Counted from the first letter of the stretch, positions 1 to 18,827 are shown. The stretch is DNA of 20,000 bases from an uncultured virus (IMG/VR IMGVR_UViG_3300005512_000019) (IMGVR_UViG_3300005512_000019); one strand, 5' to 3'. A program made the numbers and translations. The notes: generated by a model not told the origin, from the sequence alone.

Positions 1-751
1 GAACCATCCGGCGGCAGGCCTCCAGCCGTTGGGCAAAGGTAGGGGCTCCCGGCTCAATCCTCTTGAGCAGGTCCTCATCAGATGAGATCATGGTCACGTG
101 GACGGCCGCTCCCCCCTTGTTGCTTGCCAGGGCGTCCAAGTAGGCATCCTCCCCTACAAGGGCGGACTTGGTATTGATCATCAGGGGGTAGCTGTGGAGA
201 GCCAGGTGCTGGAGCATCGCCAGGGAGGCCCCCTCCTTGCGCTCATCGTCCAGGAAGTCCTCAAACCGGATTCCAAACCGGATCGGGATGGTGTTGGCTA
301 CCGCCCGCCGGATGTCCCCTGAGAGGCTGGAGGCGTCCTTCCCCCGGCACTCCATGAGCTTGTCCAGCTCCTTCCGGTACCAGTCCGGGTTGCAGTGCCT
401 GTAGCCCATCGTCTTGCTGTTGTCAAAGAAGGCGGTGTACAGGCTAGCCCGGAAGGCGTTTGCGTAACAGTAGCGGCAGCGGAAGGGGCACACCAGCCCG
501 TCCCATACATCCAGGTTGAGTGGCATGGGGCAGGCGGCGGCTCTCACGGAGACTTCCACAAAGGAGTTGACCTCCTCCGTGTTCAGCAACCGCTCCTGCT
601 TCCGCCACTCCCCCTCAGCCAGATCAAATTGGCTGTAGTTTTTCTTGCGGCCCTTCTCCCTCACCGCATCCTGATGCCGCCTCTCCCGGAGGAGCTGGGT
701 CATGCGGGGGATCACCCGTGACACGAGGTCTCTGAGTTGCCAGTAGTCCAT
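1..751 (-). CDS. Radical SAM protein, spore-photoproduct-lyase-like (3' end runs off the window; not in ORF track)
   Basis: Manual translation from ATG 751 (TGATG overlap with the upstream stop): MDYWQLRDLVSRVIPRMTQ...AAACPMPLNLDVWDGLVCPFRCRYCYANAF...IRFGIRFEDF...LMINTKS...VHVTMISSDEDLLKRIEPGAPTFAQRLEACRRMV, open to base 1. It has CxxxCxxC plus TKS and EPGAP..RL motifs typical of SPL-like radical SAMs. Confidence 0.88.
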   Translation of the reverse strand, partial: MDYWQLRDLVSRVIPRMTQLLRERRHQDAVREKGRKKNYSQFDLAEGEWRKQERLLNTEEVNSFVEVSVRAAACPMPLNLDVWDGLVCPFRCRYCYANAFRASLYTAFFDNSKTMGYRHCNPDWYRKELDKLMECRGKDASSLSGDIRRAVANTIPIRFGIRFEDFLDDERKEGASLAMLQHLALHSYPLMINTKSALVGEDAYLDALASNKGGAAVHVTMISSDEDLLKRIEPGAPTFAQRLEACRRMV

Positions 752-1293
752 CACTCCGCTCCTCCGCTCGGGCCGTGGCCGTCCACTCCGCCGTCCGCCC
801 CAAAGGCCAGGGCGTTGACGATAGCCCTGAACACGAGCACCCTCAGCTTTTTGGAGGTGTGAAGCTGATCCATCAGCTCATCCGGCCGGGGGTAGTGGAC
901 CGTGGCGTGCGCTCCCTCGGGAGAGGCCCAACGGTACATGGCCCACATTGCCCTTGCCGCAGCCATGTGGGCGTCCCTCATCTTCTCGTGGAGCACAAAC
1001 AGGTTGTAGGTGGTCCCCCCGAGGAGGACCCGGCAACTGCGGTGATTGATCTCCGCCGGCACATGGAGCTGGGCCATACGGGCGGTGAGCTCGTCAAACT
1101 GCTCTTGGGTGCAGATGCGGTCATCATCCGAGGGGTCCGGCATGATGTAAGCGGAGGTCCCTGACTGGGGTAGCTCTTGAATGTCTGCTACCAGCTGGGA
1201 GAGGTCCCTCAACGGATCGGGCTTGGCTACCGGGGCCGGGGGCTCGGCCGTCCGGGGCGGCATCCCACATTGCTCTCTGTCTTCAGGGGTCAT
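751..1293 (-). CDS. Hypothetical protein (180 aa)
   Basis: ORF 751..1371; the preferred start is ATG 1293 (MTPEDREQ) after an AAGGAG RBS; its stop overlaps the next ATG. Confidence 0.7.
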   Translation of the reverse strand: MTPEDREQCGMPPRTAEPPAPVAKPDPLRDLSQLVADIQELPQSGTSAYIMPDPSDDDRICTQEQFDELTARMAQLHVPAEINHRSCRVLLGGTTYNLFVLHEKMRDAHMAAARAMWAMYRWASPEGAHATVHYPRPDELMDQLHTSKKLRVLVFRAIVNALAFGADGGVDGHGPSGGAE

Positions 1294-1307
1294 GTCTGGG
1301 TCTCCTT

Positions 1308-1547
1308 TCAGATCAGTCCCATTCCGGCTTCTACGGGGGGCAGGCCGATCTCCGCCCGCCCCTCCAGCCATCCAATCATCTCGTAGTTGTTAGCCTTCTC
1401 AGCGTACACGGCCCCCTCTCGGGAGAACAGGATGGCTGAGTGGTTGTCGGGAGTCCGGCCCTCAAACCGGAAGTGCTCCCGCCCCCCGTAGTGCTCATCA
1501 AGCAACTGGAGGACCCTCTCCACGTGTCCGCGTCCTTCAACGTTCAT
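1308..1547 (-). CDS. Hypothetical protein (79 aa)
   Basis: ORF 1308..1670; the preferred start is ATG 1547 (MNVEGRGH) after a GGAGGT RBS. Confidence 0.65.
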   Translation of the reverse strand: MNVEGRGHVERVLQLLDEHYGGREHFRFEGRTPDNHSAILFSREGAVYAEKANNYEMIGWLEGRAEIGLPPVEAGMGLI

Positions 1548-1563
1548 GCCTACCTCCGAAAAG

Positions 1564-1679
1564 TGGACCGGGGTGGTGGAGGGACCAAGCCATGGTACAT
1601 ATGCACCAACTCCGGGGCTCGTGGCAGGTCCTGCCCGCCTGCGTCTCTCCGGCTGGGGGTGCTCCACCACCCCGGTGAT
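1564..1679 (-). ncRNA. Candidate structured ncRNA or 5' leader closed by a perfect 15-bp stem
   Basis: ACCGGGGTGGTGGAG (1567-1581) and CTCCACCACCCCGGT (1662-1676) are perfect inverted repeats, with possible inner helices GCACC/GGTGC, CCGG/CCGG and GCAGG/CCTGC. The stem begins about 10 nt downstream of a TATAAT box and is followed by CCA-CTTTT on the minus strand. Confidence 0.5.
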
Positions 1680-1685
1680 CGCGCT

Positions 1686-1713
1686 ATTATACCTGATCAG
1701 GCATTTTCAACAA
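1686..1713 (-). promoter_or_regulatory. Sigma70-like promoter TTGTTG-N16-TATAAT
   Basis: Perfect TATAAT (1691-1686) in a GC-rich genome; weak -35; the spacer contains the palindrome CCTGATCAGG (1692-1701). Confidence 0.6.
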
Positions 1714-2656
1714 AGTCCTCCGGCAAGTGGCCGATGTTCCAGAAGAGGACCTGATGCTTCAAGTCCGGCTCGGGCTCCCGCAGCTCCTTCTCCAACCACT
1801 CCCAGGCCTTGGCGTCATACCACGGATGGGAGGGGAAGGGGGGCCGGCATTTTGAGGGGGTCGTGTACTCCCATTGGGGGTCCACCAGGCAGACCTTCAC
1901 CCCGTCCAACATGCCCCCGTCCAGCGGCACTCCGGCCTTCTCGGCTATCTTCCGCAGCTTGCGTTGGCAGTCTCCCGTCCGGCCCATCACTCCGATGATC
2001 CTACAATCACGGGCGGCTGGGTAGGTGTCGCAGTACCACAGGCCCCTGGCTAGCCCTGCAGCTACGGTCCCCGAGCCGATATTGACCACGATATCAAGCC
2101 GGATAGCCCCGTGGGTGAGGGTGGGCAGTATCTGATCAGTGAGGGTGTACTGGAGCTGGTGGGCGGTAGCCTCCACCGTCTCCTTCAGCGGCAGGCCGAG
2201 GTCCAGCAGCTCCCCTTCCTCCCCGTACTTCTTGAGGTGGAGGTTGCGGCACTCATTCCATGCCACCCGAGCCATCCCGGCTCTGATGGGCACGATCTCC
2301 GCCCCGAGGTCCCTCCACTTGCGGCGGTGGTATTGGAGGAGCGGGGGAGTGTCCCTCACGTACTGCGGGTCATAGATCACGCAGTGGAGGCCCAACTCCC
2401 TACACACCCAGGCTACCCCCCAGCCCGCCATGCTGACGGCCGTCTCCACGTAGCCAAAGTGGTGGACCCCCTGCCCGGACTTCTTCTGGATGTGATTCAG
2501 TAGTCCCCGGACCTTGCTGAATGGGGGTCCGGGATCGGGGCAGCAGAGGTCCTCCCGCTTGACCAGGACCATGTACTTTGTCCAGACCTTCCCGCCGTCC
2601 CTCGGCCGTCCGGGCATCTCATACAATTCCAAAGGTGTTCTGGTCTCCAGTCTCAT
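1697..2656 (-). CDS. PLP-dependent enzyme, fold type II (cysteine synthase/ACC deaminase/D-Cys desulfhydrase-like; phage DNA-modification type)
   Basis: VKREDL...SKVRG (putative Schiff-base Lys), SMAGWGVAWVCRELGLHCVIY, VVNIGSGT phosphate loop, HPWYDAKAW and LFWNIG; start ATG 2656 after GGAGGAG. Confidence 0.85.
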   Translation of the reverse strand: MRLETRTPLELYEMPGRPRDGGKVWTKYMVLVKREDLCCPDPGPPFSKVRGLLNHIQKKSGQGVHHFGYVETAVSMAGWGVAWVCRELGLHCVIYDPQYVRDTPPLLQYHRRKWRDLGAEIVPIRAGMARVAWNECRNLHLKKYGEEGELLDLGLPLKETVEATAHQLQYTLTDQILPTLTHGAIRLDIVVNIGSGTVAAGLARGLWYCDTYPAARDCRIIGVMGRTGDCQRKLRKIAEKAGVPLDGGMLDGVKVCLVDPQWEYTTPSKCRPPFPSHPWYDAKAWEWLEKELREPEPDLKHQVLFWNIGHLPEDFVENA

Positions 2657-3728
2657 CCCGCTCCTCCTCCGGGCCAAAGCCCGCATCGTGCATTGTATAC
2701 ATCTTGTCTGTAGTCCCCTCCATGATCCTCCGGCCTTCCTCCTGGTCCCCTACACCATCCCAAGTGCCAGCCAGTATCTCCTGTGGGTCCCTCCCCTCCT
2801 GAAGCATCCTCTTCCACGTATGAGCGTTGTAGGTGCACGGGCGGGGTACGTCAAGCCCACAGCAGGTGTTTGCTGGCTCCCGGTGGGCCTTCCCGCTGTT
2901 GACAAAGTCTGGGCACCCGATCCTCACCCCGTAGGTCTCCCCGAGCTGAAGCAGCTGGGCCAGGATCGGCCTCCACTGCTCATCCTGATTGTGGTACCAG
3001 ATGCGCTCAATGTCCACCCCGATAGCGTGGAGCCTCTTGGCCACAAAGGCGTTGAAGTGGAAGTTGTAGGTGTTGTACCGATCAATGCCGTGATCCCGTA
3101 GGAGCTGCATGGTGCTCTTGAAGTCCTCCACCGTGTGGTAGCCGGGGATGAAGGGCTCACCGTTCAAACCGTAGGGCACCCCCACATCCCGCAGGAAGGA
3201 CAGATGGGATAGCCGGAGCCGGGGCGGGGTGGTCCGGCCCCTCTCCAGTACCTCCCAATCACGGTCCAGTCCAGGGGAGACTACGGGCATCACCTGGAGG
3301 AGGCGGCGGAAGTGAGCTGACTTGATCTCCTCCATAGCCGTCTCCATCATCACCCCGGTGAAACGGGTCTGGATCACAAAGGTCCACCGCTCCTCCGTGA
3401 GTACCCGCACAAGGTCCCGCGCCACGTGATAGGTCCTCTCCGCCTCTTGGAAGGGATCGGACTTGTTGCCCAGGCGGAGGGTCTTGCGGCTAGCCAGGGC
3501 GTGTGCCAGGGGGGTCTTGGGGGTCTTGTTCTTCACCCCGGCCTGTAGCTTGCGCTGAACGTCCTCCGGGTCCGCAGGCCGGAGGTCCGTGCCCCAGGTG
3601 TGGTTCAGGTGGCGGAAGTAGCAGTGGTGGCAATCAGTCAGGCAATTCCAATAGGCATCCAGTGCAAGGGGGAGGGGGCAATACAGACAGTCACCCCGGA
3701 TGCTGAGGGCGTTCTTGAGTCTCTTCAT
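2619..3728 (-). CDS. Radical SAM protein, spore-photoproduct-lyase-like
   Basis: CPLPLALDAYWNCLTDCHHCYF (CxxxCxxC), LRLGNKSDPFQ, IQTR, LERGRTTPPRLRL, GEPFIPG, C-terminal CPDF/TCCG; start ATG 3728 after AAGGAG. Confidence 0.88.
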   Translation of the reverse strand: MKRLKNALSIRGDCLYCPLPLALDAYWNCLTDCHHCYFRHLNHTWGTDLRPADPEDVQRKLQAGVKNKTPKTPLAHALASRKTLRLGNKSDPFQEAERTYHVARDLVRVLTEERWTFVIQTRFTGVMMETAMEEIKSAHFRRLLQVMPVVSPGLDRDWEVLERGRTTPPRLRLSHLSFLRDVGVPYGLNGEPFIPGYHTVEDFKSTMQLLRDHGIDRYNTYNFHFNAFVAKRLHAIGVDIERIWYHNQDEQWRPILAQLLQLGETYGVRIGCPDFVNSGKAHREPANTCCGLDVPRPCTYNAHTWKRMLQEGRDPQEILAGTWDGVGDQEEGRRIMEGTTDKMYTMHDAGFGPEEERDETGDQNTFGIV

Positions 3729-3744
3729 GGCTCGGCTCCTTTGC

Positions 3745-3783
3745 AAAAAGAGAGGGGGCCGGGGGTTGATTCCCGGCCCCCTC
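3745..3783 (-). terminator. Rho-independent terminator
   Basis: 12-bp stem GAGGGGGCCGGG/CCCGGCCCCCTC with an 8-nt loop, followed by TCTTTTT on the minus strand, about 30 nt after the stop at 3814. Confidence 0.85.
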
Positions 3784-3813
3784 GGAGGGGTGACTCACCC
3801 ACCAGGTGCAGCA

Positions 3814-4425
3814 CTACCAGGTGAGCTTGTCGCCGTCCCGCTGCACGATCTCGAAAGCCTCAAGCAGCGGCAGGGCAATCTTGGCGTAAAACCAGGACTC
3901 TTTCATGTTGTCCCGCCCGCCGTTCTTGACGTACAGCTCGTTGGCCTTCTCCACCAGGGCGTCCACGCTCTTGCGGCAGGTCTTGTAGGCTGCTGCCTCG
4001 CAGAAGGCGGTCACACGGGTGTAACCCTTGGTGCGCTGCGTGTCCTTGGTGGCCGGGGGAGCCTTGGTGGCCGCTGCCGCCTTGGCCGGGGGAGCCTTCT
4101 TGCCGGGGACCTTCTTGGCCGGGGGCTCGGCCTCTTCCTCCGGCTCCTCGGCCTCTTCCTCGGCCTCTTCCTCGGCCTCTTCCTCGGCCTCTTCCTCGGC
4201 CTCTTCCTCCGGCTCCTCATCCGCCGGGGCCACCAGCTCCAGGGCCTCCAGAACGTCCCAGGTGGAGTCCTTCAGCTCCTCGTCACCCTGGAGGTGCTCG
4301 TTGATTGCCTCGGTCATGGAGCCCACGATGTCCTCCTGGGACCCCGTGACCACGATCTCCACACCCAGGACTTCCGCCAGGTCCTTCGCAGCCGCCACCA
4401 CTTTCGCTTTGCTCGGTTTCGCCAT
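3814..4425 (-). CDS. Acidic/basic low-complexity protein, possible nucleoid/DNA-binding protein
   Basis: Strong RBS AAGGAGGT; (EEEA)n tract followed by PAKK/KAPPA repeats; has its own promoter and terminator. The function is inferred. Confidence 0.8.
   Translation of the reverse strand: MAKPSKAKVVAAAKDLAEVLGVEIVVTGSQEDIVGSMTEAINEHLQGDEELKDSTWDVLEALELVAPADEEPEEEAEEEAEEEAEEEAEEEAEEPEEEAEPPAKKVPGKKAPPAKAAAATKAPPATKDTQRTKGYTRVTAFCEAAAYKTCRKSVDALVEKANELYVKNGGRDNMKESWFYAKIALPLLEAFEIVQRDGDKLTW
4126..4218. repeat. 12-bp coding tandem repeat (CTCGGCCTCTTC)n encoding EEEA
   Basis: About 5 contiguous copies plus one further copy and CTCCGGCTC variants, in frame. Confidence 0.9.
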
Positions 4426-4514: not shown

Positions 4515-6134
4515 TCACCAGTAGGAAGCCACCATGGGATTGCCCCGCCGGAGGTCCTGCAACAGCGTGACTTCCTCCCCGCTCCTGAGCTCCCCTTCCC
4601 GCACCAGCAGCAGACCCATCCGGGCTAGCCCTCTGCGCTCCTCGTCAGGGGTCTTTTGAATGGACACAAAGGCGGTAGCATGACTGTACTTCCGCTTGTC
4701 CTCGGAGAAGTTGGACAGGCGGAGGGAGCGGGCCTCCAGGCCGGCAGCGTCTGACTGGGTGACCGTCACTACCAGGCAGTGCTTCTCCATAGACAGGCGG
4801 CGCATAGCCTTCCAGTTGGCGTTCTGCTGATCACGGGTGGACATGTGTTCGGTCCCCGGCTCCGGGGCCAGAATGTCCGCATAGTCAATCACTACCAGGT
4901 CAGGGGTCCAGCCCTCCATTGTCTCCCAGATGTCAAGCTGGGCACGGAGGTCCGCCACGCTCATTGTCCCAGTGGGGTAGCACTCCAGGTACACATCCCG
5001 GCCCCGGAGGCGGGACTTGTTGAAGGCTCTCCCGGCCCGGAGCCCTTCCCGCCAGCTCAGGGGCTTACAAGCCGGGATGAGTTCATAGAACACGGCCCCC
5101 TCGTAGTGGGACCGCATCCGGGGGCGGCTCTGGCAGTAGCTGCAGGGGTGGTATCCGGCCGGGGCAGACTTGGCAATGTCCTCCGGGCTCGGGGGCCTCC
5201 ACCCCGCCTGCTCCTCCGGGTCCTCCGGCGGGGCTAGCTGAATGTCCAGCCTTCCAGTCCCCACCCGTTCAATCAGAGAGCACCTCCCGTCCTGGTTGTG
5301 AACGCAGTCCGCTACCGGGGAGAGGTGTTCCACACAATACTTGGGCACCCAGGACTTCCCTGACAGCCGGCAGTGGCGGCGGCGGACCATCTGCTTGCGG
5401 CTCATATCGCCCACCCCAAAGAACACCGTGTTCAGTCGGCACAGGTGACCCCTGAATTCAATCTCTGACAGCCACCAGGTCTTGCCAACCTTCTCCCGGC
5501 CGAGCCCCGCCACAAAGCCCTCCCTGATCATGTGCTCATTGAGCAGCTCCCCGGCCGCTCCGGGCAGGTACAGGATCGGCTCTGCGTCCTCCTCAAAGGC
5601 TTCATAGATGGACTCCTTGTCCGTGTAGGGGTTGATGGCTGTCACAAGGGGCTTGTGGACATGCTGATACTCGGCCACCCGTCCCTCGGCTCCCCGGAGG
5701 TTGCCCCGTGAGAGGTCTGACAGGATGTCCTCGGCCGTGGCCTTCAGGTTCATCTGCCTGAAGTGGTCCACCGTCTGATCCAGGGCGTATTCTACGTTGA
5801 ACGGGTCCCCCTCCTCATGCCGGCGGGACAGCTTGGATAGGAATGCGGCAATGAGGTCTGCCTCTGCGTCCTCCATGCCTCTGCGCCTCTCCGAGTGGAA
5901 GATGGCCTCCAGCTCGGATTTGGGGGCCTTCCCGTAGCGGGTCCAGTACTCCATGCACCAGTGGGCCACCCGTCTGACGTAGGGGGTCTCCACCAACTCC
6001 TCCCTGTAGATCGGCTCCACCTGGCGCAGGAAGCTATCGCTGACAATCATGCCAGTGAGCATCATGGTCTCAGGGAGGTTGTCCACCTTCTGGCGGGTCA
6101 CTCGGGAGGTCATCTTGGGTGGGGGCTTCTTCAT
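4515..6134 (-). CDS. dnaB: DnaB-like (SF4) replicative DNA helicase with a Cys-rich insertion
   Basis: Walker A GREKVGKT, Walker B LVVIDYAD, VVTVTQS, FSEDKRKYSHAT; ATGA-coupled to the initiator gene. Confidence 0.88.
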   Translation of the reverse strand: MKKPPPKMTSRVTRQKVDNLPETMMLTGMIVSDSFLRQVEPIYREELVETPYVRRVAHWCMEYWTRYGKAPKSELEAIFHSERRRGMEDAEADLIAAFLSKLSRRHEEGDPFNVEYALDQTVDHFRQMNLKATAEDILSDLSRGNLRGAEGRVAEYQHVHKPLVTAINPYTDKESIYEAFEEDAEPILYLPGAAGELLNEHMIREGFVAGLGREKVGKTWWLSEIEFRGHLCRLNTVFFGVGDMSRKQMVRRRHCRLSGKSWVPKYCVEHLSPVADCVHNQDGRCSLIERVGTGRLDIQLAPPEDPEEQAGWRPPSPEDIAKSAPAGYHPCSYCQSRPRMRSHYEGAVFYELIPACKPLSWREGLRAGRAFNKSRLRGRDVYLECYPTGTMSVADLRAQLDIWETMEGWTPDLVVIDYADILAPEPGTEHMSTRDQQNANWKAMRRLSMEKHCLVVTVTQSDAAGLEARSLRLSNFSEDKRKYSHATAFVSIQKTPDEERRGLARMGLLLVREGELRSGEEVTLLQDLRRGNPMVASYW

Positions 6135-7288
6135 AGGCGGTCTCCGGTTTCAAAGTTCATTCCTGTCACCTTCTGGGCGTGAACAAGGTATTGGTCCCAC
6201 AGCTTCCCGCCGGGGGCCAGACTGCCAGCGTTGAGTTTGGAGTAGTGCTCCGAGCTGAGGGCGGCTATCCAGCCCGCATACTCCTCGGCCAGGGCGTGGG
6301 CGGTTGGGTAGTAGTAGCGCACCTTGCGGCGGCTGATTGAGCCGTGCTCCGTCCCCGGTAGCTTGGAGTGGTACTCCCTGATCAACCTCACGGCACCCTC
6401 AAGGACCTTCCACGCCTGCCCCGTCAGCTTCATTCCGGTCAGGCTAGCCCAGGCCTTGCCGATCACCTGTACAGCGGGGTCTGAGGGGCCGGGGCTCGGG
6501 CGGTTGCTCACCTGGGCCTCCCGCTGCCGCTCCCGATCCCGCTGCCACTGGCGGTGTATGTTTGTGAACTTGTGTTCCCCGTTGGAGCTGCTCCGCACTC
6601 GCAGGCTTCCCAAGCTCAGGAGGTTCTTGCTCCAGAAGGAGTCCTGCTGGGCCCACAGGACGGCGGGGCGGATGTCCCTGTTGAAGTCCCACTTGTCTAT
6701 GCGGATGAGCTTGCGCAGGGCGTCCACCCCGGCCGTCACGGATGCCTTGGTCACGGAGCGTACAAGAGACGGGTGGAGCTCATGTTGTTTCTTCAAGAAG
6801 TCTCGGGAGAAAGCCTCCAGCTCATCAGGTACAGAAAGACACGTCAGGGGAGTCTCCGGTGTTTCCCTATCCTCTCCGGTATTTCCCCTAACAGTCCCCG
6901 GTATTTCCCTCACACTTTTGCCAGGCCTGGTGCGAGCCACTGTCTGGTTTTTCACAAGGGTGGCTCCTTGCATAAAGCGCACGTGGATGTAGTGCCCAGT
7001 GATTCTCCCGGCGGGGTCCTTCCGGGGGCGGTCCTCTACCAGGCCCAGCTTCTTGAGGTCCCCCTTCCGAGCCCGGACACGATCCTCCCCCCACCCAAGG
7101 GCTCGGGCGGTGTAGGAGGTGGTGGCCCTTGCGTTGGTACCACCCTGCCACTTGGCCGTGTAGTAGTAGAACACATACAGGGCCAGGAGGTCCCCGGCGT
7201 GCGGCCGGGGCTTCTTCCCGTCTCTCAGGAGCCTATCCACAGTTGGCTTGCTCAGCACAATCGGCTCCTCATTGATGTCGTAGGTCAT
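6131..7288 (-). CDS. Phage replication initiator (lambda O/replisome-organizer-like)
   Basis: N-terminal winged HTH (LYVFYY...TARALGWGEDRVRARKGDLKKLGLVE), a low-complexity linker, then IRID...LWAQQDSFWSKNLLSLGSLR resembling O-protein C-terminal domains; lies directly upstream of the helicase. Confidence 0.75.
   Translation of the reverse strand: MTYDINEEPIVLSKPTVDRLLRDGKKPRPHAGDLLALYVFYYYTAKWQGGTNARATTSYTARALGWGEDRVRARKGDLKKLGLVEDRPRKDPAGRITGHYIHVRFMQGATLVKNQTVARTRPGKSVREIPGTVRGNTGEDRETPETPLTCLSVPDELEAFSRDFLKKQHELHPSLVRSVTKASVTAGVDALRKLIRIDKWDFNRDIRPAVLWAQQDSFWSKNLLSLGSLRVRSSSNGEHKFTNIHRQWQRDRERQREAQVSNRPSPGPSDPAVQVIGKAWASLTGMKLTGQAWKVLEGAVRLIREYHSKLPGTEHGSISRRKVRYYYPTAHALAEEYAGWIAALSSEHYSKLNAGSLAPGGKLWDQYLVHAQKVTGMNFETGDRL
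6853..6910. repeat. Three 16-bp direct repeats TCYCCGGTRTTTCCCY, putative origin iterons
   Basis: Copies at 6853-6868, 6873-6888 and 6895-6910 (periods 20 and 22 bp, not multiples of 3) in the initiator linker. Confidence 0.7.
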
Positions 7289-7672: not shown

Positions 7673-7845
7673 CGCCCCGCCTCCTCGGCCGCTTGCCTCG
7701 CAGCCGCCTCGGCACGCATACGCTGGGCAATTTGTCCTCGGCCGCTCAGGTAGTAACTACTGAGCCACACGGCTAGCCCCGCCAGCAGAACGCCCACGAG
7801 GGCTCCTGCTATGGCGGCGGCGGGGTGTTGGCGTACTGTGTCCAT
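7669..7845 (-). CDS. Small single-pass membrane protein (58 aa)
   Basis: Start ATG 7845 (MDTVRQH) after GAGGAGGAGG; hydrophobic stretch AAAIAGALVGVLLAGLAVWLSSYYL. Confidence 0.65.
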   Translation of the reverse strand: MDTVRQHPAAAIAGALVGVLLAGLAVWLSSYYLSGRGQIAQRMRAEAAARQAAEEAGR

Positions 7846-10775: not shown

Positions 10776-11009
10776 TCAGTCCTCCTCTCCGGGCGGCGGG
10801 AGGATCGGGCACCACTTGCGGATGCTCTTCCCAAAGCCCTTGACGTTGTGTGCGCGAAACTCCTGGAGGTCCTCTCTCCAGTAGGCCAGCTCCCTCCCCG
10901 TCTTGCTAGTCCAGATCATGACGTGCTCCCCGTCTGCGGGCTGGCTTTGTGAGAGGTCCCTCCAGTAGATGTCCTCTTGATTGCGGTGAATGACGGCTTC
11001 TTTACTCAC
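10776..11009 (-). CDS. Hypothetical protein, DUF551-like (77 aa)
   Basis: W..LSQSQPADGEHVMIW...AYW...IRKWCPILPPP pattern resembling DUF551-type phage proteins; GTG start after GGAGG. Confidence 0.6.
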   Translation of the reverse strand: MSKEAVIHRNQEDIYWRDLSQSQPADGEHVMIWTSKTGRELAYWREDLQEFRAHNVKGFGKSIRKWCPILPPPGEED

Positions 11010-11463
11010 TCTGTGCCCTCCTGACTACCCGTCGCACCTTCTTGGCAACGGGGCGTTTGATGACCTGGCGGCGGGGCTTGTCCCCTCCGCTCGTATCAAG
11101 TGTGTGAATGGTACGGTTGGCCGGGGCCGGGGGAGGGCTAGCCGGATGGGGCGACTGGGGGACGGTCTGGCCCTTCTTCCGGGGGCGACCACTCATCACT
11201 CGGCTTCCGGCCCCCACCAGGTCCTTCTGGGTGAACACCCCGTGCCCCATGGTCTGAAAGCGGATGTGGAACAGCTTGAAGAGGTCGTTGCCCTCCCGGT
11301 CTGTTCCCCACGTGTGTATCACGGCCTGGGTCCCGCTCTTGGATTCGATTGTGAGCCCTTCCAGGTACTCAGGCAGGTGGTCCTCCGGGCCTTCCGCCTG
11401 CTCCACAATCGGGTCCGGGTCCGGGGCGGGCCTGTTTACCTTCCTGATGATGCACTTTTTCAT
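11002..11463 (-). CDS. Hypothetical basic protein (153 aa)
   Basis: Strong RBS AAGGAGG downstream of a promoter; Arg/Lys-rich C-terminus. Confidence 0.7.
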   Translation of the reverse strand: MKKCIIRKVNRPAPDPDPIVEQAEGPEDHLPEYLEGLTIESKSGTQAVIHTWGTDREGNDLFKLFHIRFQTMGHGVFTQKDLVGAGSRVMSGRPRKKGQTVPQSPHPASPPPAPANRTIHTLDTSGGDKPRRQVIKRPVAKKVRRVVRRAQSE

Positions 11464-11509: not shown

Positions 11510-11560
11510 GGGGACCCCCGGACGGCCAGGGCTAGCCTGTCCGGGCGCACCTGCGTGGGA

Positions 11561-13525
11561 CTATGCTGCTTCCTCGTCATTCTCGTCAGAGTATCGGGCC
11601 AGGAGGGCGGAGAGCATGCTGCTCTCGTCAACGTCCTGCCCATCCAAGACGGCCGTCAGCACCACCCGCTTCTCATCCAGCAGCTCAGCAATCTCCTCCT
11701 CCACCGTCCGATCCGCCAGCAGGTAGTAGGCTGTCACACTGTCGGCCGTCTGACCGATGCGGTGCACCCGATCCTCTGCCTGGTCGTGCTCTCCGGGGGT
11801 CCAGCCGATCTCGACAAAGGCGGTACAGGAGGCGGCTGTCAGGGTCAGTCCCACGCCTGCGGCCTTGATGTTGCCGAGAAACAGCCTGATCTCCGGGTCC
11901 TTCTGGAAGGCGTCCACTGCAGCCTGACGGGCGGGCTTGGCCGTCCGGCCGTCCACCTTGACGCACTGTCCTTCAAAGGCCTCTGCCAGGTCATCCAGAC
12001 ACTTGTGATGAACCCCAAACACCACCAGCTTCTCCCCGGAGGAGAGGAAGTCCTCAATCCATTCGATGCAGGCGTTGATCTTGCCCGTGTAGGCCAGCTG
12101 CTTGAGGTGCTCAATCCTGACCAGTGCCTCGGCCGTCATAGCCTTCTTGGCCGCTTCCTCCCCCTTCTTGCCCCACAGCCACTTGATGAAGTTGTCCTGC
12201 GCGGCCTGGTAGGCATTCCGGTTTTCCAGTTCCATCGGTACAACCACCCGAGTCTTGGGCGGTAGCTCCTTGGCCACGTCAACCTTCAGGCGGCGGAGGA
12301 GGATGGACTTGGTCAGCTGGGCGTTGAGCTCCTTGGTGTTGGAGGCCCCGGAGAAGTCCCACCCATAGCCGTTGCGGCGGGCGTTGCAATACTTCCGGGC
12401 AAAGGCCCAGAAGTCCGGGTACAGGTCCGGGTCCACCAGCTGAATGGGGGTGAAGAATTCAATGGGCCTGTTCGTGATGGGGGTCCCCGAGAGGGCTATG
12501 CAGTGGGGAGCGGCCTGGGACAGTTCCAGGCAGGCCTTGCTGCGCTTGGTCTTGGGGTTCTTTGCGTAGTGGACCTCATCAAAAATGACCACGCTCGGCT
12601 TCATCTTCTTGAGCTGCTTCTCCCAGTAGGGTAGGATGTCGTAGTTGATGACGATGATCTTGCCCTTGATGAAGTACGGGGTCCGGCCTTCCACCTGTTC
12701 CACCTGCGGATCGGCCAGCCACTTCTCGGCCTCCCGCTGCCAGTTGAGCTTGAGGGAGGCGGGGACCACGATCACTGCCGGCCGGAAGTCCGGGTGCAGC
12801 TGAAGGTAGGCCAGGGCCTGGACCGTCTTGCCCAGCCCCATCTCGTCACCGATGAAGGCCCGCCCGTTGCGGGTCTCAATGAAGGCCACCCCGCTGTCCT
12901 GGAAGGGGCGGAGGGTCCCGAGGAGGCCGGGGATGTCGATGTGATCCGGGGCCGGGGCTGTCTTGGACTCAAACCACGCCATCAGATTGGGGGTCAGGGG
13001 GAAGCCCAAGTCAAGGAGGCTCTGGACGTTTTCCAGGCTGAGTTTCGCTGACCAGCCCGCTCCCGATCCGTTGCGCTTCTCAAACATGCGGTCATGGAGG
13101 CGGGTCTTGACGTCCGAGACCAGCTGGGCATCCCAGTCAAACCTGATCCAGATGCGCCCAGCCTTCTCCTTGTCCAGCTCGGCCGTCTTGGGGCTAGCCG
13201 GGGCCTGGGGCCTGGGGCTCTTGGGCTGATAGGACTTGATGGGCAGGGGCTCCAGGTCCTCCGGTATCTGGCGGTGGTACTTCTGGAGCTTGCGGATGCA
13301 GAGGGCCAGCTGCTTCTCGGTCAGATAGCCCCGGCTCCGGTAGAACACTGCGAATGAGCTCAGAATCTCCGAGTCACAGGCGTTGAAGCCAATGTCGTTG
13401 AGGTGGGCCGTGAAGCCGGCATTCTGCTCATCCCGAGTCTGGCAGGAGTACAGGAACATCAGAGCCGCAACGGCAAACTCCGGCTCCCCCTTGATGCGCT
13501 CTTGAATTGTGAGTGTTGTGGTCAT
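11561..13525 (-). CDS. SNF2-family (SF2) helicase/ATPase, HARP/SMARCAL1-like, with an extra N-terminal domain
   Basis: LRPFQ, GDEMGLGKT, VVPASLKLNW, DEVH, LSGTPITN, LRRLK, AGVGLTLT, QAEDRVHRIGQ. Confidence 0.93.
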   Translation of the reverse strand: MTTTLTIQERIKGEPEFAVAALMFLYSCQTRDEQNAGFTAHLNDIGFNACDSEILSSFAVFYRSRGYLTEKQLALCIRKLQKYHRQIPEDLEPLPIKSYQPKSPRPQAPASPKTAELDKEKAGRIWIRFDWDAQLVSDVKTRLHDRMFEKRNGSGAGWSAKLSLENVQSLLDLGFPLTPNLMAWFESKTAPAPDHIDIPGLLGTLRPFQDSGVAFIETRNGRAFIGDEMGLGKTVQALAYLQLHPDFRPAVIVVPASLKLNWQREAEKWLADPQVEQVEGRTPYFIKGKIIVINYDILPYWEKQLKKMKPSVVIFDEVHYAKNPKTKRSKACLELSQAAPHCIALSGTPITNRPIEFFTPIQLVDPDLYPDFWAFARKYCNARRNGYGWDFSGASNTKELNAQLTKSILLRRLKVDVAKELPPKTRVVVPMELENRNAYQAAQDNFIKWLWGKKGEEAAKKAMTAEALVRIEHLKQLAYTGKINACIEWIEDFLSSGEKLVVFGVHHKCLDDLAEAFEGQCVKVDGRTAKPARQAAVDAFQKDPEIRLFLGNIKAAGVGLTLTAASCTAFVEIGWTPGEHDQAEDRVHRIGQTADSVTAYYLLADRTVEEEIAELLDEKRVVLTAVLDGQDVDESSMLSALLARYSDENDEEAA

Positions 13526-13535
13526 TGCGGGGCTC

Positions 13536-14105
13536 CTATATGCGTGCGGCGGTTGTCTTCAACTCTGCCATGACTTCCCAGATGCGTTTCCACTTCCATC
13601 CCTCGGCTCGGAGATACCTCTGGAGGATGCCCCGGATGATCTTGGGGGGCTGGGCTCCCAGGTCCCGGAGGGCCTCCACTGGAGCGTTGAGGAGGAGGTC
13701 CAGGATGTACCTGGCGTCATCACTCAATCCGCTCCTGAGCTCCACCACCCGCATGTGTTGGTAGGGTCCGTCACTCCTGTGGTCCGGCACGATCTCCTCC
13801 AGGACGGCTTCCCCGAGGTCCGGGGGGAGGTCGTTGTGCTGCGTGTAGTCAATCAGGCCCTGGTTCAAGAGCCGATAAAGCCACGTGCTGAATTTGGCTC
13901 CCCTGTTGGGATCGTAGGAGTGGAAGGCCTCCATGAAGATACCCTCACAGACTCCCATCAGCTCGGTGAAGTCATGGCCAGTTGTTTCCCGGAAGGACCA
14001 GCTGCGGGCGCACATCATTGCGTAGGTTGCGTCATACAGCTTCTGAGCCCGTCCTTCGGTGACCACCCGCCGGATCGTGTGCTGCGTGTTCCGGTCCTTG
14101 GTCAT
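13536..14105 (-). CDS. Phage-encoded sigma-70-family factor
   Basis: Region-2-like DFTELM...FMEAFHSYDPNRGAKFSTWLYRLLNQGLIDY, and LSDDARYIL resembling the start of region 4. Confidence 0.78.
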   Translation of the reverse strand: MTKDRNTQHTIRRVVTEGRAQKLYDATYAMMCARSWSFRETTGHDFTELMGVCEGIFMEAFHSYDPNRGAKFSTWLYRLLNQGLIDYTQHNDLPPDLGEAVLEEIVPDHRSDGPYQHMRVVELRSGLSDDARYILDLLLNAPVEALRDLGAQPPKIIRGILQRYLRAEGWKWKRIWEVMAELKTTAARI

Positions 14106-15747: not shown

Positions 15748-15783
15748 AAAAAAAGAGGGAAAAGTCAAAAAAACTTTCCCCCC
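15748..15783 (-). terminator. Possible intrinsic terminator just upstream of the promoter
   Basis: Minus strand GGGGGGAAAG-TTTTTTTGA-CTTTTCCCTC-TTTTTTT (10-bp stem including G-U pairs, then a U7 tail). Confidence 0.55.
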
Positions 15784-15805
15784 TTCCTTGGCCACGCCTG
15801 ATGGG

Positions 15806-16931: not shown

Positions 16932-17251
16932 CAGCCTTGCTCCTTCCCGCCCACGTTGTCAGTCCGCCGGAAGAGGTGCCAGCAAATGGCCTTGTCCGGC
17001 CGGAGGGCCTGGATGGTGGTGATGTACTCCCGTTGGAGCCCGCCCCCAACCTTGATCGGCTTCCCGGTGCTGTGGGCTTCAATGCAGTGAGTCTCTTTCT
17101 CCCCCACCCCTTTGGGGACCAACGCCCAGAGGACGGGTCCCGCTCCCGGCTGGGCGGCGGCGGTCAGAATCTGGGACCCCACGGGCAACTCCAATTGCTG
17201 GAGGGGCTCCAGGGTCAGTTTGTACTTCAGGATGTGAGCTGTGTTCGCCAT
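16931..17251 (-). CDS. Conserved phage hypothetical protein (106 aa)
   Basis: ILKYKL...LELPVGSQILTAAAQ...LWALV...TG...YITT...WHLF pattern, recalled from small phage proteins; AAGGAG RBS. Confidence 0.75.
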   Translation of the reverse strand: MANTAHILKYKLTLEPLQQLELPVGSQILTAAAQPGAGPVLWALVPKGVGEKETHCIEAHSTGKPIKVGGGLQREYITTIQALRPDKAICWHLFRRTDNVGGKEQG

Positions 17252-17284
17252 GATTGGCTCCTTCCCGGCCTCCCGGCCGTGCTG

Positions 17285-17989
17285 CTAGTTCCAGAGCTGC
17301 TGCCTGAGCTCCTCTACCCAACTGACCACGTACTCGGAGAACACCCGAGCCCGTGCCTCATTCCACTTCAACGGCTCCACCATCGCCAGCGGCTTGACGT
17401 TGGCCCGGACGGGGTTGCGGGACAGCCCCACAAGGAGGTTGTCTTTGGAGGTCTCCAGGACCCTGTACTTGTCATAATGCCCGCCAACGGCCGTCCAGAG
17501 GTCATAGATGCCCTTGAGCAGGTGCCACATGCAGTGCTCCATCGTCCACTCCTCCAGGTGGGCCGCAATCAGGTAGAAGGGGTTGTCAGCGTTCACCATC
17601 TCCCGAGCTTGGGTGATCCTCTCGTCAAGGCGGTCCCTGTGGAGGCGGAGGGCCTTGAGCATCTTGTCCTCCACCAGCTGGCAGGCAGCATAGTGAGCCT
17701 CCTCCTCCAGGAGGTCCTGGACCGTCTCCGGGCTGAGGGGCTTGGCGGGGAAGAAGGCCGCGCCCCCGTCCCCCGTATCCACATGAACCATCATGGTCCA
17801 CTCGGTGGTGTCCACGTTGGTTGCGCGGCATCCCGAGGGGTGGGACTCCACCTCCCAGGCCTCCTTGATCAGGGTGCGAATGTCTGACATCACGCTCCCC
17901 GGCCGGACGGCAAAGACCTCCTGCTTGAGGGGCACGGGGGTCTGGGCTCCGAAACTGAACAGCTTGACAGTGACTTCAATTGTGGACAT
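17285..17989 (-). CDS. Hypothetical protein (234 aa)
   Basis: AAGGAGGT RBS downstream of a promoter. Confidence 0.75.
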   Translation of the reverse strand: MSTIEVTVKLFSFGAQTPVPLKQEVFAVRPGSVMSDIRTLIKEAWEVESHPSGCRATNVDTTEWTMMVHVDTGDGGAAFFPAKPLSPETVQDLLEEEAHYAACQLVEDKMLKALRLHRDRLDERITQAREMVNADNPFYLIAAHLEEWTMEHCMWHLLKGIYDLWTAVGGHYDKYRVLETSKDNLLVGLSRNPVRANVKPLAMVEPLKWNEARARVFSEYVVSWVEELRQQLWN

Positions 17990-18012
17990 GACTGTACCTC
18001 CTTGGTTGGCCT

Positions 18013-18041
18013 ATCCTACTGGATGGGCGTGTTTCGTTCAA
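18013..18041 (-). promoter_or_regulatory. Sigma70-like promoter TTGAAC-N17-TAGGAT
   Basis: -35 at 18041-18036 and -10 at 18018-18013. Confidence 0.65.
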
Positions 18042-18238
18042 ATGGTGACCCTCCTCCATCCAAGGAGGATCATCCTGCCTTCATCGTAGGTCCCCGGAAG
18101 GGCCGAGACCGTGACCACGGTCCCGTCCCGATCCGCCGTGCCCCATCCATTCCGTAGTGAGTGGTGTTGGGCGTGGATTGCCTGGGAGAGGCTCCCAAAG
18201 TCCTTCCTCCAGGCCGTGATCCCGTAAACCTTGCTCAT
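18038..18238 (-). CDS. Hypothetical protein (66 aa)
   Basis: GGAGGT RBS; abuts the upstream stop. Confidence 0.65.
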   Translation of the reverse strand: MSKVYGITAWRKDFGSLSQAIHAQHHSLRNGWGTADRDGTVVTVSALPGTYDEGRMILLGWRRVTI

Positions 18239-18239
18239 C

Positions 18240-18827
18240 CTACCACCTCCCGGTGCGCATACACCTGTTCGTGCTAGCCGTCTGGCTCCCTACCTGGCTG
18301 CTGTAGCTCCGGCGGTCCCTGCGCCACTCTCGGGCTCTCCCTACGTGGGCCACTTCCCAGTCCACCCCAGCGTATCCGGGCTGGAGGCGGTCCACCATTG
18401 CGTAGGTGACGTGCTCAATGTCCCCGTTGCGGTTGAGGAGGAAGTAGCGGCGTGTCCAGTAGCCGTCCCGGCAGACCGCAAAGATGAGGACCGTGCTGTT
18501 GTCCGGGATGTCGTTGTACTTGATGGGGGTAGCCGTGAGGGGCTCCTTGGCCTTCCGGCAGGGGGCTGCGTAGAGCATGGAGCCTCCCCGCCCGATCCCC
18601 TCCGGGTTGTCGGAGACGTACCAGACCACGGTGAGGTCCCAGGTGCGCTTGGTCAGGGGGTTGAGGCTAGCCAGGTGGAAGTCCGGGTGGACCTCGTAGC
18701 CCAGGGCTTCAACGGCCTCCCGCACGGTGTCCAGGGCGGGATCGGTAGCGGGGGCGGGAGAGGCCGAGCTGGCGATGGTCCGGCCTCCCCACTCTGTCTT
18801 GATCTCGGTGATGAGGTAGTGGCTCAT
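18240..18827 (-). CDS. Hypothetical protein (195 aa)
   Basis: AAGGAG RBS. Confidence 0.7.
   Translation of the reverse strand: MSHYLITEIKTEWGGRTIASSASPAPATDPALDTVREAVEALGYEVHPDFHLASLNPLTKRTWDLTVVWYVSDNPEGIGRGGSMLYAAPCRKAKEPLTATPIKYNDIPDNSTVLIFAVCRDGYWTRRYFLLNRNGDIEHVTYAMVDRLQPGYAGVDWEVAHVGRAREWRRDRRSYSSQVGSQTASTNRCMRTGRW

What the first reader, a model, noticed from the sequence alone, without database searches (positions are those of the whole stretch)
442..18672. Highly iterated palindrome GGCTAGCC dispersed through a CTAG-poor genome
Seen (manual count): exact GGCTAGCC at 442, 2048, 3488, 4623, 6442, 7771, 11136, 11530, 13192 and 18665 (10 copies), with near matches at 5232, 8884, 18272 and 19938. 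I found only about 18 CTAG in total, so over half sit in this octamer. At ~64% GC a random model gives under 1 copy of the octamer and about 65 CTAG. The site occurs in two reading frames (GCT-AGC Ala-Ser and CTA-GCC Leu-Ala, using A/T-ending codons in GC3-rich genes) and once intergenically, mostly 1.1-1.8 kb apart in the left 13 kb. Inference: DNA-level selection, analogous to cyanobacterial HIP1. It could be a methylation/modification target, a site for a genome-organising protein, or a host-derived repair/recombination signal.
Basis: partly seen in the sequence, partly recalled or inferred. Interest (0 to 1): 0.75.

Follow-up and report, generated by a model that had tools for sequence, protein, structure and literature searches.

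The report
Iterated GGCTAGCC word in a phage
A virus of bacteria writes the eight-letter DNA palindrome GGCTAGCC into its genes far more often than chance or codon habits allow, much like the unexplained HIP1 repeats of cyanobacteria, and the same word also fills the chromosomes of a few unrelated soil bacteria.

Summary
GGCTAGCC occurs 10 times at the stated places (0.42 expected; 0 of 200 shuffles reach 10). It survives a codon-preserving shuffle: 9 in genes against 0.49, 0 of 1000. It is the most over-represented 8-mer, 26.7-fold. The word fills 9 of the 16 places where the proteins allow it.

The window is a phage replication module. Its closest fetched relative is a 61-kb viral contig (G154). 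That contig carries 16 copies along its length. The other relatives' loci hold 0 to 2 each. Only 1 of 9 sites in shared genes is common to both phages.

The same word saturates 6 of 151 Hymenobacter genomes, with up to 3325 copies. These phages use Shine-Dalgarno sites, which Hymenobacter lacks, so their host is another, unidentified lineage. No methyltransferase was found in the window or in the 67 of 71 G154 proteins scanned.

Best reading (0.5): a HIP1-like genome word imposed in the host cell and mirrored by the phage. Main rival: a reader encoded by the phage. The spacing is not regular, and part of the CTAG poverty follows from codon usage.

This scan has noted other iterated palindromes on other DNA before. 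I rate this a new variant of a known kind.

The parts
442..449 (.). GGCTAGCC inside the radical-SAM gene 2-754 (minus strand). Codons CGG GCT AGC CTG (R-A-S-L), in the conserved peptide FRASLY.
   Evidence: This is the only site shared with the related phage G154, with identical codons. Of 27 loci from homologous viral contigs that carry the same peptide, only the 2 from G153/G154 spell it this way; the other 25 do not.
2048..2055 (.). GGCTAGCC inside the PLP-dependent enzyme gene 1697-2686 (minus). Codons GGG CTA GCC AGG (G-L-A-R).
3488..3495 (.). GGCTAGCC inside the second radical-SAM-like gene 2619-3746 (minus). Codons CTG GCT AGC CGC (L-A-S-R).
   Evidence: The G154 orthologue has CTC CGG GAG GGC (L-R-E-G) at the aligned place.
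4623..4630 (.). GGCTAGCC inside the DnaB-like helicase gene 4515-6134 (minus). Codons GGG CTA GCC CGG (G-L-A-R).
   Evidence: The G154 orthologue has GGC ATC ATG AGA there.
6442..6449 (.). GGCTAGCC inside the DnaD-like loader gene 6131-7288 (minus). Codons TGG GCT AGC CTG (W-A-S-L).
7771..7778 (.). GGCTAGCC near the 3' end of hypothetical gene 7757-8374 (minus). Codons GGG GCT AGC CGT (G-A-S-R).
   Evidence: Among the loci I held, this gene has a homologue only in G154. It matches no family.
11136..11143 (.). GGCTAGCC inside hypothetical gene 11002-11463 (minus). Codons CCG GCT AGC CCT (P-A-S-P).
11530..11537 (.). GGCTAGCC in the 97-base spacer between the helicase stop (11561) and the next gene's start (11463).
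   Evidence: It can sit in a hairpin, but the spacer folds no better than shuffles (z = -0.5). No terminator-like site covers it.
13192..13199 (.). GGCTAGCC inside the SNF2-type helicase gene 11561-13525 (minus). Codons CCG GCT AGC CCC (P-A-S-P).
   Evidence: The G154 orthologue has GAG AGC ACA AAG there and carries its own site elsewhere.
18665..18672 (.). GGCTAGCC inside hypothetical gene 18240-18827 (minus). Codons CTG GCT AGC CTC (L-A-S-L).

Best explanation
GGCTAGCC is a true highly iterated palindrome of the HIP1 kind. It is an exact 8-base word kept in the DNA itself, wherever the encoded protein tolerates it. It lies in genes of unrelated function and between genes.

I think the pressure most likely comes from the cell in which the phage replicates. 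A host factor that recognises or creates this word would act on all DNA in that cell. In cyanobacteria the counterpart is linked to methylation and to DNA uptake or recombination. The phage genome would then drift to the host's word density and so look like host DNA.

Shown here:
- the enrichment and its independence of codon usage;
- its reach across a related phage contig;
- its absence from other relatives;
- the turnover of sites;
- the same word saturating some bacterial chromosomes to the same degree.

Inferred, not shown:
- that the source is the host;
- that a protein reads the word;
- that the benefit is passing as self.
For: Enrichment in the window: 10 copies against 0.42 expected. 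In genes, 9 against 0.49 under a synonymous shuffle, 0 of 1000. It is the top 8-mer at 26.7-fold.

Saturation: the word fills 7 of 12 Ala-Ser and 2 of 4 Leu-Ala permissive places in the window. In G154 it fills 7 of 20 and 7 of 20. In 200 kb of each of two word-rich Hymenobacter genomes it fills 58 of 153 and 52 of 127 Ala-Ser places, and 50 of 156 and 52 of 157 Leu-Ala places. In a word-poor Hymenobacter the figures are 1 of 63 and 1 of 98.

The related phage G154 shares 9 genes with the window at 24 to 68% identity. It has 16 copies spread from 2371 to 57320. In its genes, 14 stand against 1.06 expected, 0 of 1000, and the word is its top 8-mer at 12.7-fold.

Patchy among relatives:
- 82 loci (640 kb) hold 1 copy in all.
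- 76 helicase loci (1.0 Mb) hold 14, all in the two loci of G153/G154.
- 46 radical-SAM loci (732 kb) hold 10, all in G153/G154.
- 79 loci of the topoisomerase-like gene (1.39 Mb) hold 28: 14 in G153/G154 and at most 2 in any other.

Sites turn over: 1 of 9 sites in orthologous genes is shared.

Cells can impose this very word. Six of 151 genomes of one genus hold 961 to 3325 copies, against 15 to 324 in the rest. That genus is Hymenobacter, going by the title of the MAG that led there.

No methyltransferase or other obvious writer was found in the window or in G154. Pfam was run on 67 of its 71 proteins and PHROGs on 45.
Against: The host is not identified, so its word density is unknown.

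The only word-rich genomes I found are Hymenobacter. These are unlikely hosts for two reasons.
- A Shine-Dalgarno core precedes 16 of 26 window ORFs and 38 of 64 G154 ORFs. In Hymenobacter it precedes 1 of 138, 1 of 167 and 3 of 130.
- GATC is nearly absent from the rich Hymenobacter genomes (2 and 1 per 200 kb) but normal in the window (98 against 87). TCGA shows the opposite pattern.

The two phages differ in G+C (62.5 against 56.5%). They also have opposite biases for other palindromes: CCCGGG is 0 against 136, CGGCCG is 37 against 0. This suggests different hosts, yet they share the word.

None of 401 sampled Chloroflexota is word-rich. Neither are 50 other genomes or 5 further Chloroflexota. 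Such samples could easily miss a small clade.

The fine pattern differs. In the phages 26 of 30 GCTAGC carry the full G...C flanks. In rich Hymenobacter only 279 of 664 do.
Confidence: 0.5

Rival explanations
1. The word is a phage-lineage trait read or written by a phage protein. Candidates are a replication, recombination or packaging factor, or the conserved radical-SAM module as a sequence-directed DNA-modifying system. The sites would serve the phage's own DNA transactions or mark its DNA.
For: The two closest relatives I could fetch share the word. They do so despite different G+C and opposite biases for CCCGGG and CGGCCG, which point to different restriction landscapes.

One site is identical in both.

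No word-rich genome that uses Shine-Dalgarno sites was found.

One hypothetical gene (7757-8374) is shared only with G154 among the loci held.

Many genes in both phages have no known function.
Against: Every recognisable shared gene also occurs in relatives that lack the word. This holds for the helicase, primase, DnaB-like, topoisomerase-like and both radical-SAM proteins.

No methyltransferase, Vsr-type nuclease or specific DNA-binding family was found.

The apparent restriction of gene 7757-8374 may only reflect the 10-kb flanks fetched.

Bacterial chromosomes reach the same saturation with the same word. I did not test whether those genomes hold homologues of the phage genes.

Only 20 kb of the window's genome was available.
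Confidence: 0.27
2. The word is a by-product of a biased mutation or repair process with no reader and no function. For example, a repair bias could remove CTAG everywhere except in the GG_CC context, or convert near-matches into the palindrome.
For: CTAG outside the octamer is scarce. The window has 8 and G154 has 23, against totals of 44 to 116 expected for all CTAG.

Sites turn over rather than being conserved.

Spacing is indistinguishable from random.

Elhai's published model explains HIP1 gain by biased repair (passages read).
Against: No C5-methyltransferase (the usual partner of very-short-patch repair) was found in 0 of 5 rich Hymenobacter genomes, nor in the phages.

The transition neighbours are not informative at these counts: GGTTAGCC 1, GGCCAGCC 8.

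In rich Hymenobacter the number of permissive Ala-Ser places is about double that of a poor relative (153 and 127 against 63). So amino acids are changed as well, which needs a strong drive.
Confidence: 0.18
3. The count is an artefact of codon usage, a recurring peptide, or a dispersed repeat element that happens to contain the octamer.
For: All genic sites fall in only two frames, coding Ala-Ser or Leu-Ala.
Against: Codon-preserving and codon-order shuffles give 0.49 and 0.27 copies against 9 observed.

The third frame would contain a stop codon, so two frames are all that is possible.

The flanks of the ten copies share no sequence.

The sites lie in nine different genes and one spacer.
Confidence: 0.02

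Closest known systems
HIP1 (GCGATCGC) and the alternate highly iterated palindromes of cyanobacteria (Elhai 2015, PMC4390886; Xu et al. 2018, PMC5861425)
   Same: It is a GC-rich (75%) exact palindrome. It is tens of times over-represented. It lies in coding and non-coding DNA and is built from non-preferred codons. It is lineage-specific, and different lineages use different words.
   Different: - The word is new. 'CTAG' does not occur in Elhai 2015, and none of the 25 listed HIP papers holds GGCTAGCC.
- The carrier is a phage whose signals do not look cyanobacterial or Bacteroidota-like.
- Density is 500 per Mb here and 260 per Mb in G154, below the 1000 to 2000 per Mb quoted for HIPs.
- No cognate methyltransferase was found.
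- The first and last letters are not the loose positions in the phages.
GGCTAGCC-rich Hymenobacter chromosomes (found here; in no paper I could search)
   Same: The word is identical. The two reading frames are used about equally. The share of permissive places filled is similar, 32 to 41% against 35 to 58%.
   Different: - Hymenobacter genes lack Shine-Dalgarno sites.
- The rich genomes have purged GATC and like TCGA, the reverse of the window.
- The looser forms NGCTAGCC and GCTAGC are also raised there.
DNA uptake sequences (USS of Pasteurellaceae, DUS of Neisseriaceae). A 2026 paper proposes this role for HIP1 (PMC13756078, passages read).
   Same: Both are short exact words written about once per 1 to 2 kb into genes. 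Both would mark DNA as belonging to the lineage. Mobile elements of the same hosts can carry them (recalled, not tested here).
   Different: USS and DUS are not palindromes (recalled). Competence of the unknown host cannot be assessed.
Restriction-site avoidance in phages
   Same: It also acts on short palindromes at the DNA level. It is very strong in this same window: CCCGGG 0 against 22, GGGCCC 1 against 27, GGATCC 0 against 11, CGCG 13 against 70.
   Different: The sign is opposite. GGCTAGCC and its core GCTAGC (12 against 3.3) are enriched, not avoided.
Chi sites
   Same: Chi is also a GC-rich over-represented octamer that protects DNA in the cell. Elhai makes this comparison.
   Different: Chi is asymmetric and acts in one orientation (recalled). 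A palindrome has no orientation.

Membership tests
Highly iterated palindromes (HIP1 and alternate HIPs, as in Elhai 2015 and Xu et al. 2018) | Exact GC-rich palindromic oligomer (75 to 100% G+C) | tested here: met
   GGCTAGCC is its own reverse complement and is 75% G+C. The criterion was read in Elhai 2015.
Highly iterated palindromes (HIP1 and alternate HIPs, as in Elhai 2015 and Xu et al. 2018) | Extreme over-representation against composition-aware models. The abstract of Xu et al. 2018 gives 15- to 300-fold for HIP1 (listing). | tested here: met
   About 24-fold against dinucleotide shuffles. 26.7-fold under third-order Markov, top of all 8-mers. 18-fold against a synonymous shuffle. G154: 12.7-fold and 13-fold.
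Highly iterated palindromes (HIP1 and alternate HIPs, as in Elhai 2015 and Xu et al. 2018) | Density of roughly 1000 to 2000 copies per million bases | tested here: not met
   Window 500 per Mb (10 in 20 kb). G154 260 per Mb (16 in 61.4 kb). Rich Hymenobacter about 290 to 640 per Mb. The range is quoted from Elhai 2015.
Highly iterated palindromes (HIP1 and alternate HIPs, as in Elhai 2015 and Xu et al. 2018) | Present in coding and non-coding DNA and not explained by codon preference | tested here: met
   9 genic and 1 intergenic site in the window. 14 genic and 2 intergenic in G154. Shuffles.
Highly iterated palindromes (HIP1 and alternate HIPs, as in Elhai 2015 and Xu et al. 2018) | A methyltransferase specific for the word or its core is present in the genome | tested here: inconclusive
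   None was recognised in the window or in the G154 proteins scanned: Pfam on 67 of 71, PHROGs on 45. The host genome is unknown. In five rich Hymenobacter genomes no single methyltransferase family is common to all: PF00145 in 0 of 5, PF01555 in 3 of 5, PF02086 in 1 of 5, PF02384 in 4 of 5. Specificity was not tested.
Highly iterated palindromes (HIP1 and alternate HIPs, as in Elhai 2015 and Xu et al. 2018) | One-letter deviants concentrated at the first and last letters | tested here: not met
   In the phages only 4 of 30 GCTAGC lack the G...C flanks. In rich Hymenobacter the feature is met, with 385 of 664 GCTAGC lacking them.
Highly iterated palindromes (HIP1 and alternate HIPs, as in Elhai 2015 and Xu et al. 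2018) | Sites conserved between related genomes more than control palindromes | tested here: inconclusive
   1 of 9 sites in orthologous genes is shared between the window and G154. These genomes are far apart (24 to 68% protein identity), and no control palindrome was scored.
Highly iterated palindromes (HIP1 and alternate HIPs, as in Elhai 2015 and Xu et al. 2018) | Kilobase-scale periodic distribution | tested here: not met
   Next-neighbour spacing is not more regular than random (P = 0.245 for the window, 0.513 for G154). With 10 and 16 sites the test is weak. The tens-of-kilobase periods of Xu et al. cannot be assessed.
Dispersed repeat elements (REP or MITE type) | Copies share sequence beyond the core | tested here: not met
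   The flanks of the 10 copies share no sequence.
DNA uptake sequences | The carrier is a naturally competent bacterium whose uptake machinery prefers the word | not testable with these tools

The most novel reading that the evidence does not exclude
GGCTAGCC is the mark of a transferable self-tag system. An unidentified reader, not one of the classical DNA methyltransferase families, would have spread or arisen independently in distant lineages. Those lineages include a subset of Hymenobacter (Bacteroidota) and the Shine-Dalgarno-using host of these phages. Phages of such hosts copy the tag to pass as self. Highly iterated palindromes would then be a general identity mark mimicked by phages across bacteria, rather than a cyanobacterial oddity.
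Probability: 0.2. Interest if true: 0.8.

Novelty: new variant of a known kind. Interest (0 to 1): 0.62.

Why it matters
HIP1 has been unexplained for three decades. Every paper I could search treats it only in cyanobacteria.

This case offers a different word in two new settings. One is a phage pair, where the word can be gained or lost on short time scales. The other is a patchy subset of one bacterial genus: 6 rich genomes among 151, one of them with a 4.6-Mb contig. That patchiness is the contrast needed to find the responsible gene by comparative genomics.

If phages mirror their host's word, such words would also become a simple host-prediction signal. They would also point to a self/non-self mark that phages mimic.

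Tried and rejected
**Host and relative hunting**
- No whole genome is held for the window.
- Megablast against phage records gave only a 51-base helicase match.
- tblastn with two proteins gave only distant phages of many hosts.
- The window DNA is not in five rich Hymenobacter genomes. Only short matches of 66 to 86% identity were found.
- Tetranucleotide correlation did not discriminate. The best value over the loci scored was 0.50.
- The window holds no tRNA.
- I could not reach Deinococcota, which codon usage suggested. One Allomeiothermus silvanus plasmid stretch had 2 copies against 2.6 expected. Its record gave no handle with relatives.
- 401 Chloroflexota had no word-rich member. The two highest pair counts, 23 and 16, came from a repeat element and a CRISPR array.
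- Five further Chloroflexota held 8 to 34 copies.
- 50 genomes from the pair scan held 2 to 438 copies.
- The closest helicase relative (65% identity) could not be fetched.

**Other word-bearing viral contigs**
- Those from the pair scan share no genes with the window. They also lack its Shine-Dalgarno and CGCG-avoidance signature.

**A candidate reader**
- Gene 7757-8374 is shared only with G154. It matched no family, and the atlas gave only unnamed viral clusters scoring 0.82 or less.

**The shared site**
- The 18-base spelling of the FRASLY site was found in two further viral contigs. These hold only 1 and 2 copies of the word and show no homology to window proteins. I read them as chance matches.

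**The intergenic site**
- I tested it as a terminator or hairpin and found no support.

**Thermophily**
- Amino-acid composition gave estimates of 42 and 28 C, which is uninformative.

**Earlier notes of this scan**
- Nothing was found by place or by sequence.

Full report
**1. The observation**

Dinucleotide-preserving shuffles give a mean of 0.42 and never more than 2, so 0 of 200 reach 10.

CTAG occurs 18 times against a shuffle mean of 51.5, and 10 of the 18 lie inside the octamer. The window is 62.5% G+C.

The flanks of the ten copies share nothing, so this is not a dispersed repeat element. Of the four near matches, two differ by one letter (5232, 18272) and two by two letters (8884, 19938).

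**2. What the window is**

All convincing genes lie on the minus strand. They form a phage-type replication module:
- a DnaB-like helicase (4515-6134);
- a DnaD-like loader (6131-7288);
- a primase (8377-9282);
- a protein of PHROG 6247, annotated as a topoisomerase (9586-10476);
- an SNF2-type helicase (11561-13525);
- a protein with sigma-70 region 2 (13536-14105).

At the left end there are two radical-SAM-like genes and a PLP-dependent enzyme gene. The window holds no tRNA. No whole genome is held for it. No close relative exists among deposited phages.

**3. Is it codon usage?**

No. Nine copies lie in nine different genes and one lies between genes.
- Seven read xxG-GCT-AGC-Cxx (Ala-Ser).
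- Two read xGG-CTA-GCC (Leu-Ala).
- The third frame would contain a stop codon.

Shuffling synonymous codons within each gene gives 0.49 copies (maximum 3; 0 of 1000 reach 9). Shuffling codon order gives 0.27. GCT is 87 of 580 Ala codons and CTA is 22 of 552 Leu codons, so the word is built from rare codons.

Under a third-order Markov model it is the most over-represented of all 8-mers, 26.7-fold.

The word fills 7 of the 12 places where the protein sequence would allow it in the Ala-Ser frame. It fills 2 of 4 in the Leu-Ala frame.

Inside genes CTAG is 16 against 20.0 +/- 3.5 under the codon shuffle. So part of the CTAG poverty follows from codon usage, although CTAG outside the octamer is rare.

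The spacing of the sites is not more regular than random placement (P = 0.245).

**4. Relatives**

The nearest helicase in the protein collection is 65% identical, and I could not fetch its contig.

The closest relative I could read is a viral contig of 61,397 bases. It is G154, estimated 82% complete, 56.5% G+C. G153 is the same phage from another record.

G154 shares nine genes with the window:
- radical-SAM protein, 68% identity;
- topoisomerase-like protein, 65%;
- primase, 52%;
- SNF2 helicase, 49%;
- DnaB-like helicase, 44%.

It also carries portal, capsid and tail genes. So the window's element is a tailed phage.

G154 holds 16 copies of GGCTAGCC spread from 2371 to 57320. Fourteen are in genes, seven in each frame, and two lie between genes. 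In genes, 14 stand against 1.06 under the synonymous shuffle (0 of 1000). The word is again the top 8-mer, 12.7-fold. It fills 7 of 20 and 7 of 20 permissive places.

All other relatives are at background:
- 82 loci (640 kb) hold 1 copy in all.
- 76 helicase loci (1.0 Mb) hold 14, all in the two G153/G154 loci.
- 46 radical-SAM loci (732 kb) hold 10, all in G153/G154.
- 79 topoisomerase-like loci (1.39 Mb) hold 28: 14 in G153/G154 and at most 2 in any other.

These sets overlap in part.

**5. Turnover of sites**

Of nine sites that lie in genes shared by the two phages, one is common to both. It is CGG GCT AGC CTG in the invariant peptide FRASLY of the radical-SAM protein.

Among 27 homologous loci with that same peptide, only the 2 from G153/G154 spell it as the octamer; the other 25 do not.

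At the other eight sites the partner genome has either synonymous alternatives or different amino acids. An example of the first kind is AGG CTA GCC GGG against CGC CTT GCC GGC.

So the word is being written and lost. It is not inherited as a fixed set of functional sites.

**6. The same word in bacteria**

I scanned one genome per species for two copies within 30 bases. One stretch, from an uncultured Hymenobacter MAG, had 15 dispersed copies in 10 kb.

That genome (G001, 4.1 Mb) holds 2620 copies. The reversed control word occurs twice.

Among 151 genomes of its genus, six hold 961 to 3325 copies and the rest hold 15 to 324. Two unpublished genomes are in the denominator, and neither is rich.

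In 200 kb of each of two rich genomes:
- the two frames are used equally;
- 58 of 153 and 52 of 127 permissive Ala-Ser places are filled;
- 50 of 156 and 52 of 157 permissive Leu-Ala places are filled;
- in a poor relative the figures are 1 of 63 and 1 of 98.

So the phages are as saturated as chromosomes that carry the word.

I found no paper that mentions this:
- GGCTAGCC appears in 619 papers. The 30 listed are cloning, virology or cell-biology papers by title.
- None of the 25 listed papers on iterated palindromes holds it.
- Elhai 2015 holds no 'CTAG'.
- 'Hymenobacter' with 'GCTAGC' finds one unrelated paper.

**7. Is Hymenobacter the host?**

Probably not.

*Translation signals.* A Shine-Dalgarno core lies before 16 of 26 window ORFs and 38 of 64 G154 ORFs. 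In three Hymenobacter genomes it lies before 1 of 138, 1 of 167 and 3 of 130 (examples).

*Other palindromes.* The rich Hymenobacter genomes have almost no GATC (2 and 1 per 200 kb, about 300 to 380 expected) and an excess of TCGA. The window has normal GATC (98 against 87) and avoids TCGA (8 against 61).

*DNA identity.* The window's DNA is not in five rich genomes.

*Codon usage.* The window's usage (GGG, CCC, AGG, CTC, GAG, AAG) reminded me of Thermaceae. That is a recollection, not a test. One Allomeiothermus silvanus plasmid stretch has the word at expectation (2 against 2.6). I could not reach that phylum otherwise.

*Surveys.* No word-rich genome turned up among 401 sampled Chloroflexota, 5 further Chloroflexota or 50 other genomes. 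Such samples could easily miss a clade as small as the Hymenobacter one.

**8. Mechanism**

What is shown is a strong, continuing, lineage-specific pressure on the DNA itself.

I favour a host-side source (0.5), for three reasons.
- Cellular chromosomes can be driven to the same state with the same word.
- The trait is patchy among phages that share the same recognisable genes.
- I found no writer in the phages. No methyltransferase or comparable family turned up in the window. None turned up in G154, with Pfam on 67 of 71 proteins and PHROGs on 45.

By analogy with HIP1, the word would be read by a host system tied to methylation and DNA uptake or recombination. That view comes from abstracts and passages. 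A phage that carries the word would look like host DNA.

Three results count against this reading.
- The two phages differ in G+C. They also have opposite biases for CCCGGG (0 against 136) and CGGCCG (37 against 0). That suggests different hosts, yet they share the word. This keeps a phage-encoded reader alive (0.27).
- In Hymenobacter no methyltransferase family is common to five rich genomes: PF00145 in 0 of 5, PF01555 in 3 of 5, PF02086 in 1 of 5, PF02384 in 4 of 5. So Elhai's rule of a cognate methyltransferase is not evidently met there.
- In the phages the octamer is sharp, with 26 of 30 GCTAGC carrying the G...C flanks. In Hymenobacter looser forms are also raised, and only 279 of 664 carry them.

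A function-free repair bias (0.18) is not excluded.

**9. Comparison and novelty**

This works like an alternate HIP. As a member of that class:
- it meets the palindrome, over-representation and codon-independence criteria;
- it falls short on density (260 to 500 per Mb against 1000 to 2000);
- it lacks a demonstrated methyltransferase;
- it does not show the end-letter looseness in the phages.

The papers I read on HIP1 do not mention phages ('phage' occurs 0 times in PMC5861425 and PMC13756078). Only two papers hold both 'highly iterated palindrome' and 'cyanophage', each with a single mention of the former.

Earlier notes of this scan report other iterated palindromes on other DNA. These include ACGGCCGT in Chloroflexota and their phages, and an unnamed octamer in a 42-kb phage. 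I could not check them. Their letters are partly hidden, so I cannot say whether any is this word.

I rate this a new variant of a known kind.

Noticed in passing
G001, G062, G072, G085, G101, G138 (genus survey); loci L275 and L329-L348: Six of 151 Hymenobacter genomes carry GGCTAGCC at 961 to 3325 copies per genome, a chromosomal iterated palindrome outside cyanobacteria. In 200 kb of two of them GATC is almost gone (2 and 1 copies, 300 to 380 expected). CGATCG is absent. No methyltransferase family is common to five of them.
   Followed up: partly
window, whole length: Many other palindromes are very strongly avoided: CCCGGG 0 (about 22 expected), GGGCCC 1 (27), GGATCC 0 (11), GGCGCC 0 (11), TCCGGA 0 (8), CCGCGG 0 (9), CGCG 13 (70), TCGA 8 (61). 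CpG is at 0.67 of expectation. This points to a host with many restriction systems.
   Followed up: partly
G154 (L445-L448): The related phage has a different set of biases. CGCG is 0 (130 expected) and CGGCCG is 0 (13 to 35). CCCGGG has 136 copies (32 to 48 expected). TGCCGGCA has 20 copies (7.6-fold under third-order Markov). So CCCGGG is forbidden in one phage and iterated in its relative.
   Followed up: no
window 2-4425; G154 35370-40003: A module sits next to the DnaB-like gene in both phages. It holds a radical-SAM protein with a CX3CX2C motif, a second radical-SAM-like protein, a CobT-like protein, and either a PLP enzyme (window) or a DUF362 protein (G154). The first radical-SAM protein is 53 to 73% identical across 46 viral loci whose G+C ranges from 31 to 57%. 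It may be a DNA repair or modification system. Its function is unknown.
   Followed up: no
window, e.g. 1245, 2437, 2603, 6730, 8949, 11650: CGGCCGTC and its complement GACGGCCG occur 19 times (2.5 expected under third-order Markov). There is a strand bias: 15 CGGCCGTC against 4 GACGGCCG on the plus strand. GGCCGGGG and its complement occur 29 times. These may be codon or peptide effects, since the genes run in one direction. I did not test this.
   Followed up: no
G560:C1:3176982-3177580; G457 and G491: In single Chloroflexota genomes GGCTAGCC is part of a CRISPR-like array repeat (G560). It also forms the outer ends of small dispersed inverted-repeat elements (G457, G491).
   Followed up: no
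window 7757-8374: This hypothetical 205-residue protein has a homologue (37% identity) only in G154 among the roughly 280 related loci searched. It matches no family. Its absence elsewhere may only reflect the 10-kb flanks fetched.
   Followed up: partly
L085, L114, L150/L151, L155 (viral contigs): These viral contigs are 63 to 66% G+C and have few Shine-Dalgarno sites. They hold 4 to 8 copies of GGCTAGCC where about 0.2 are expected. They may be phages of the word-rich Hymenobacter. They were selected for having a close pair of copies, so the counts are biased upward.
   Followed up: no
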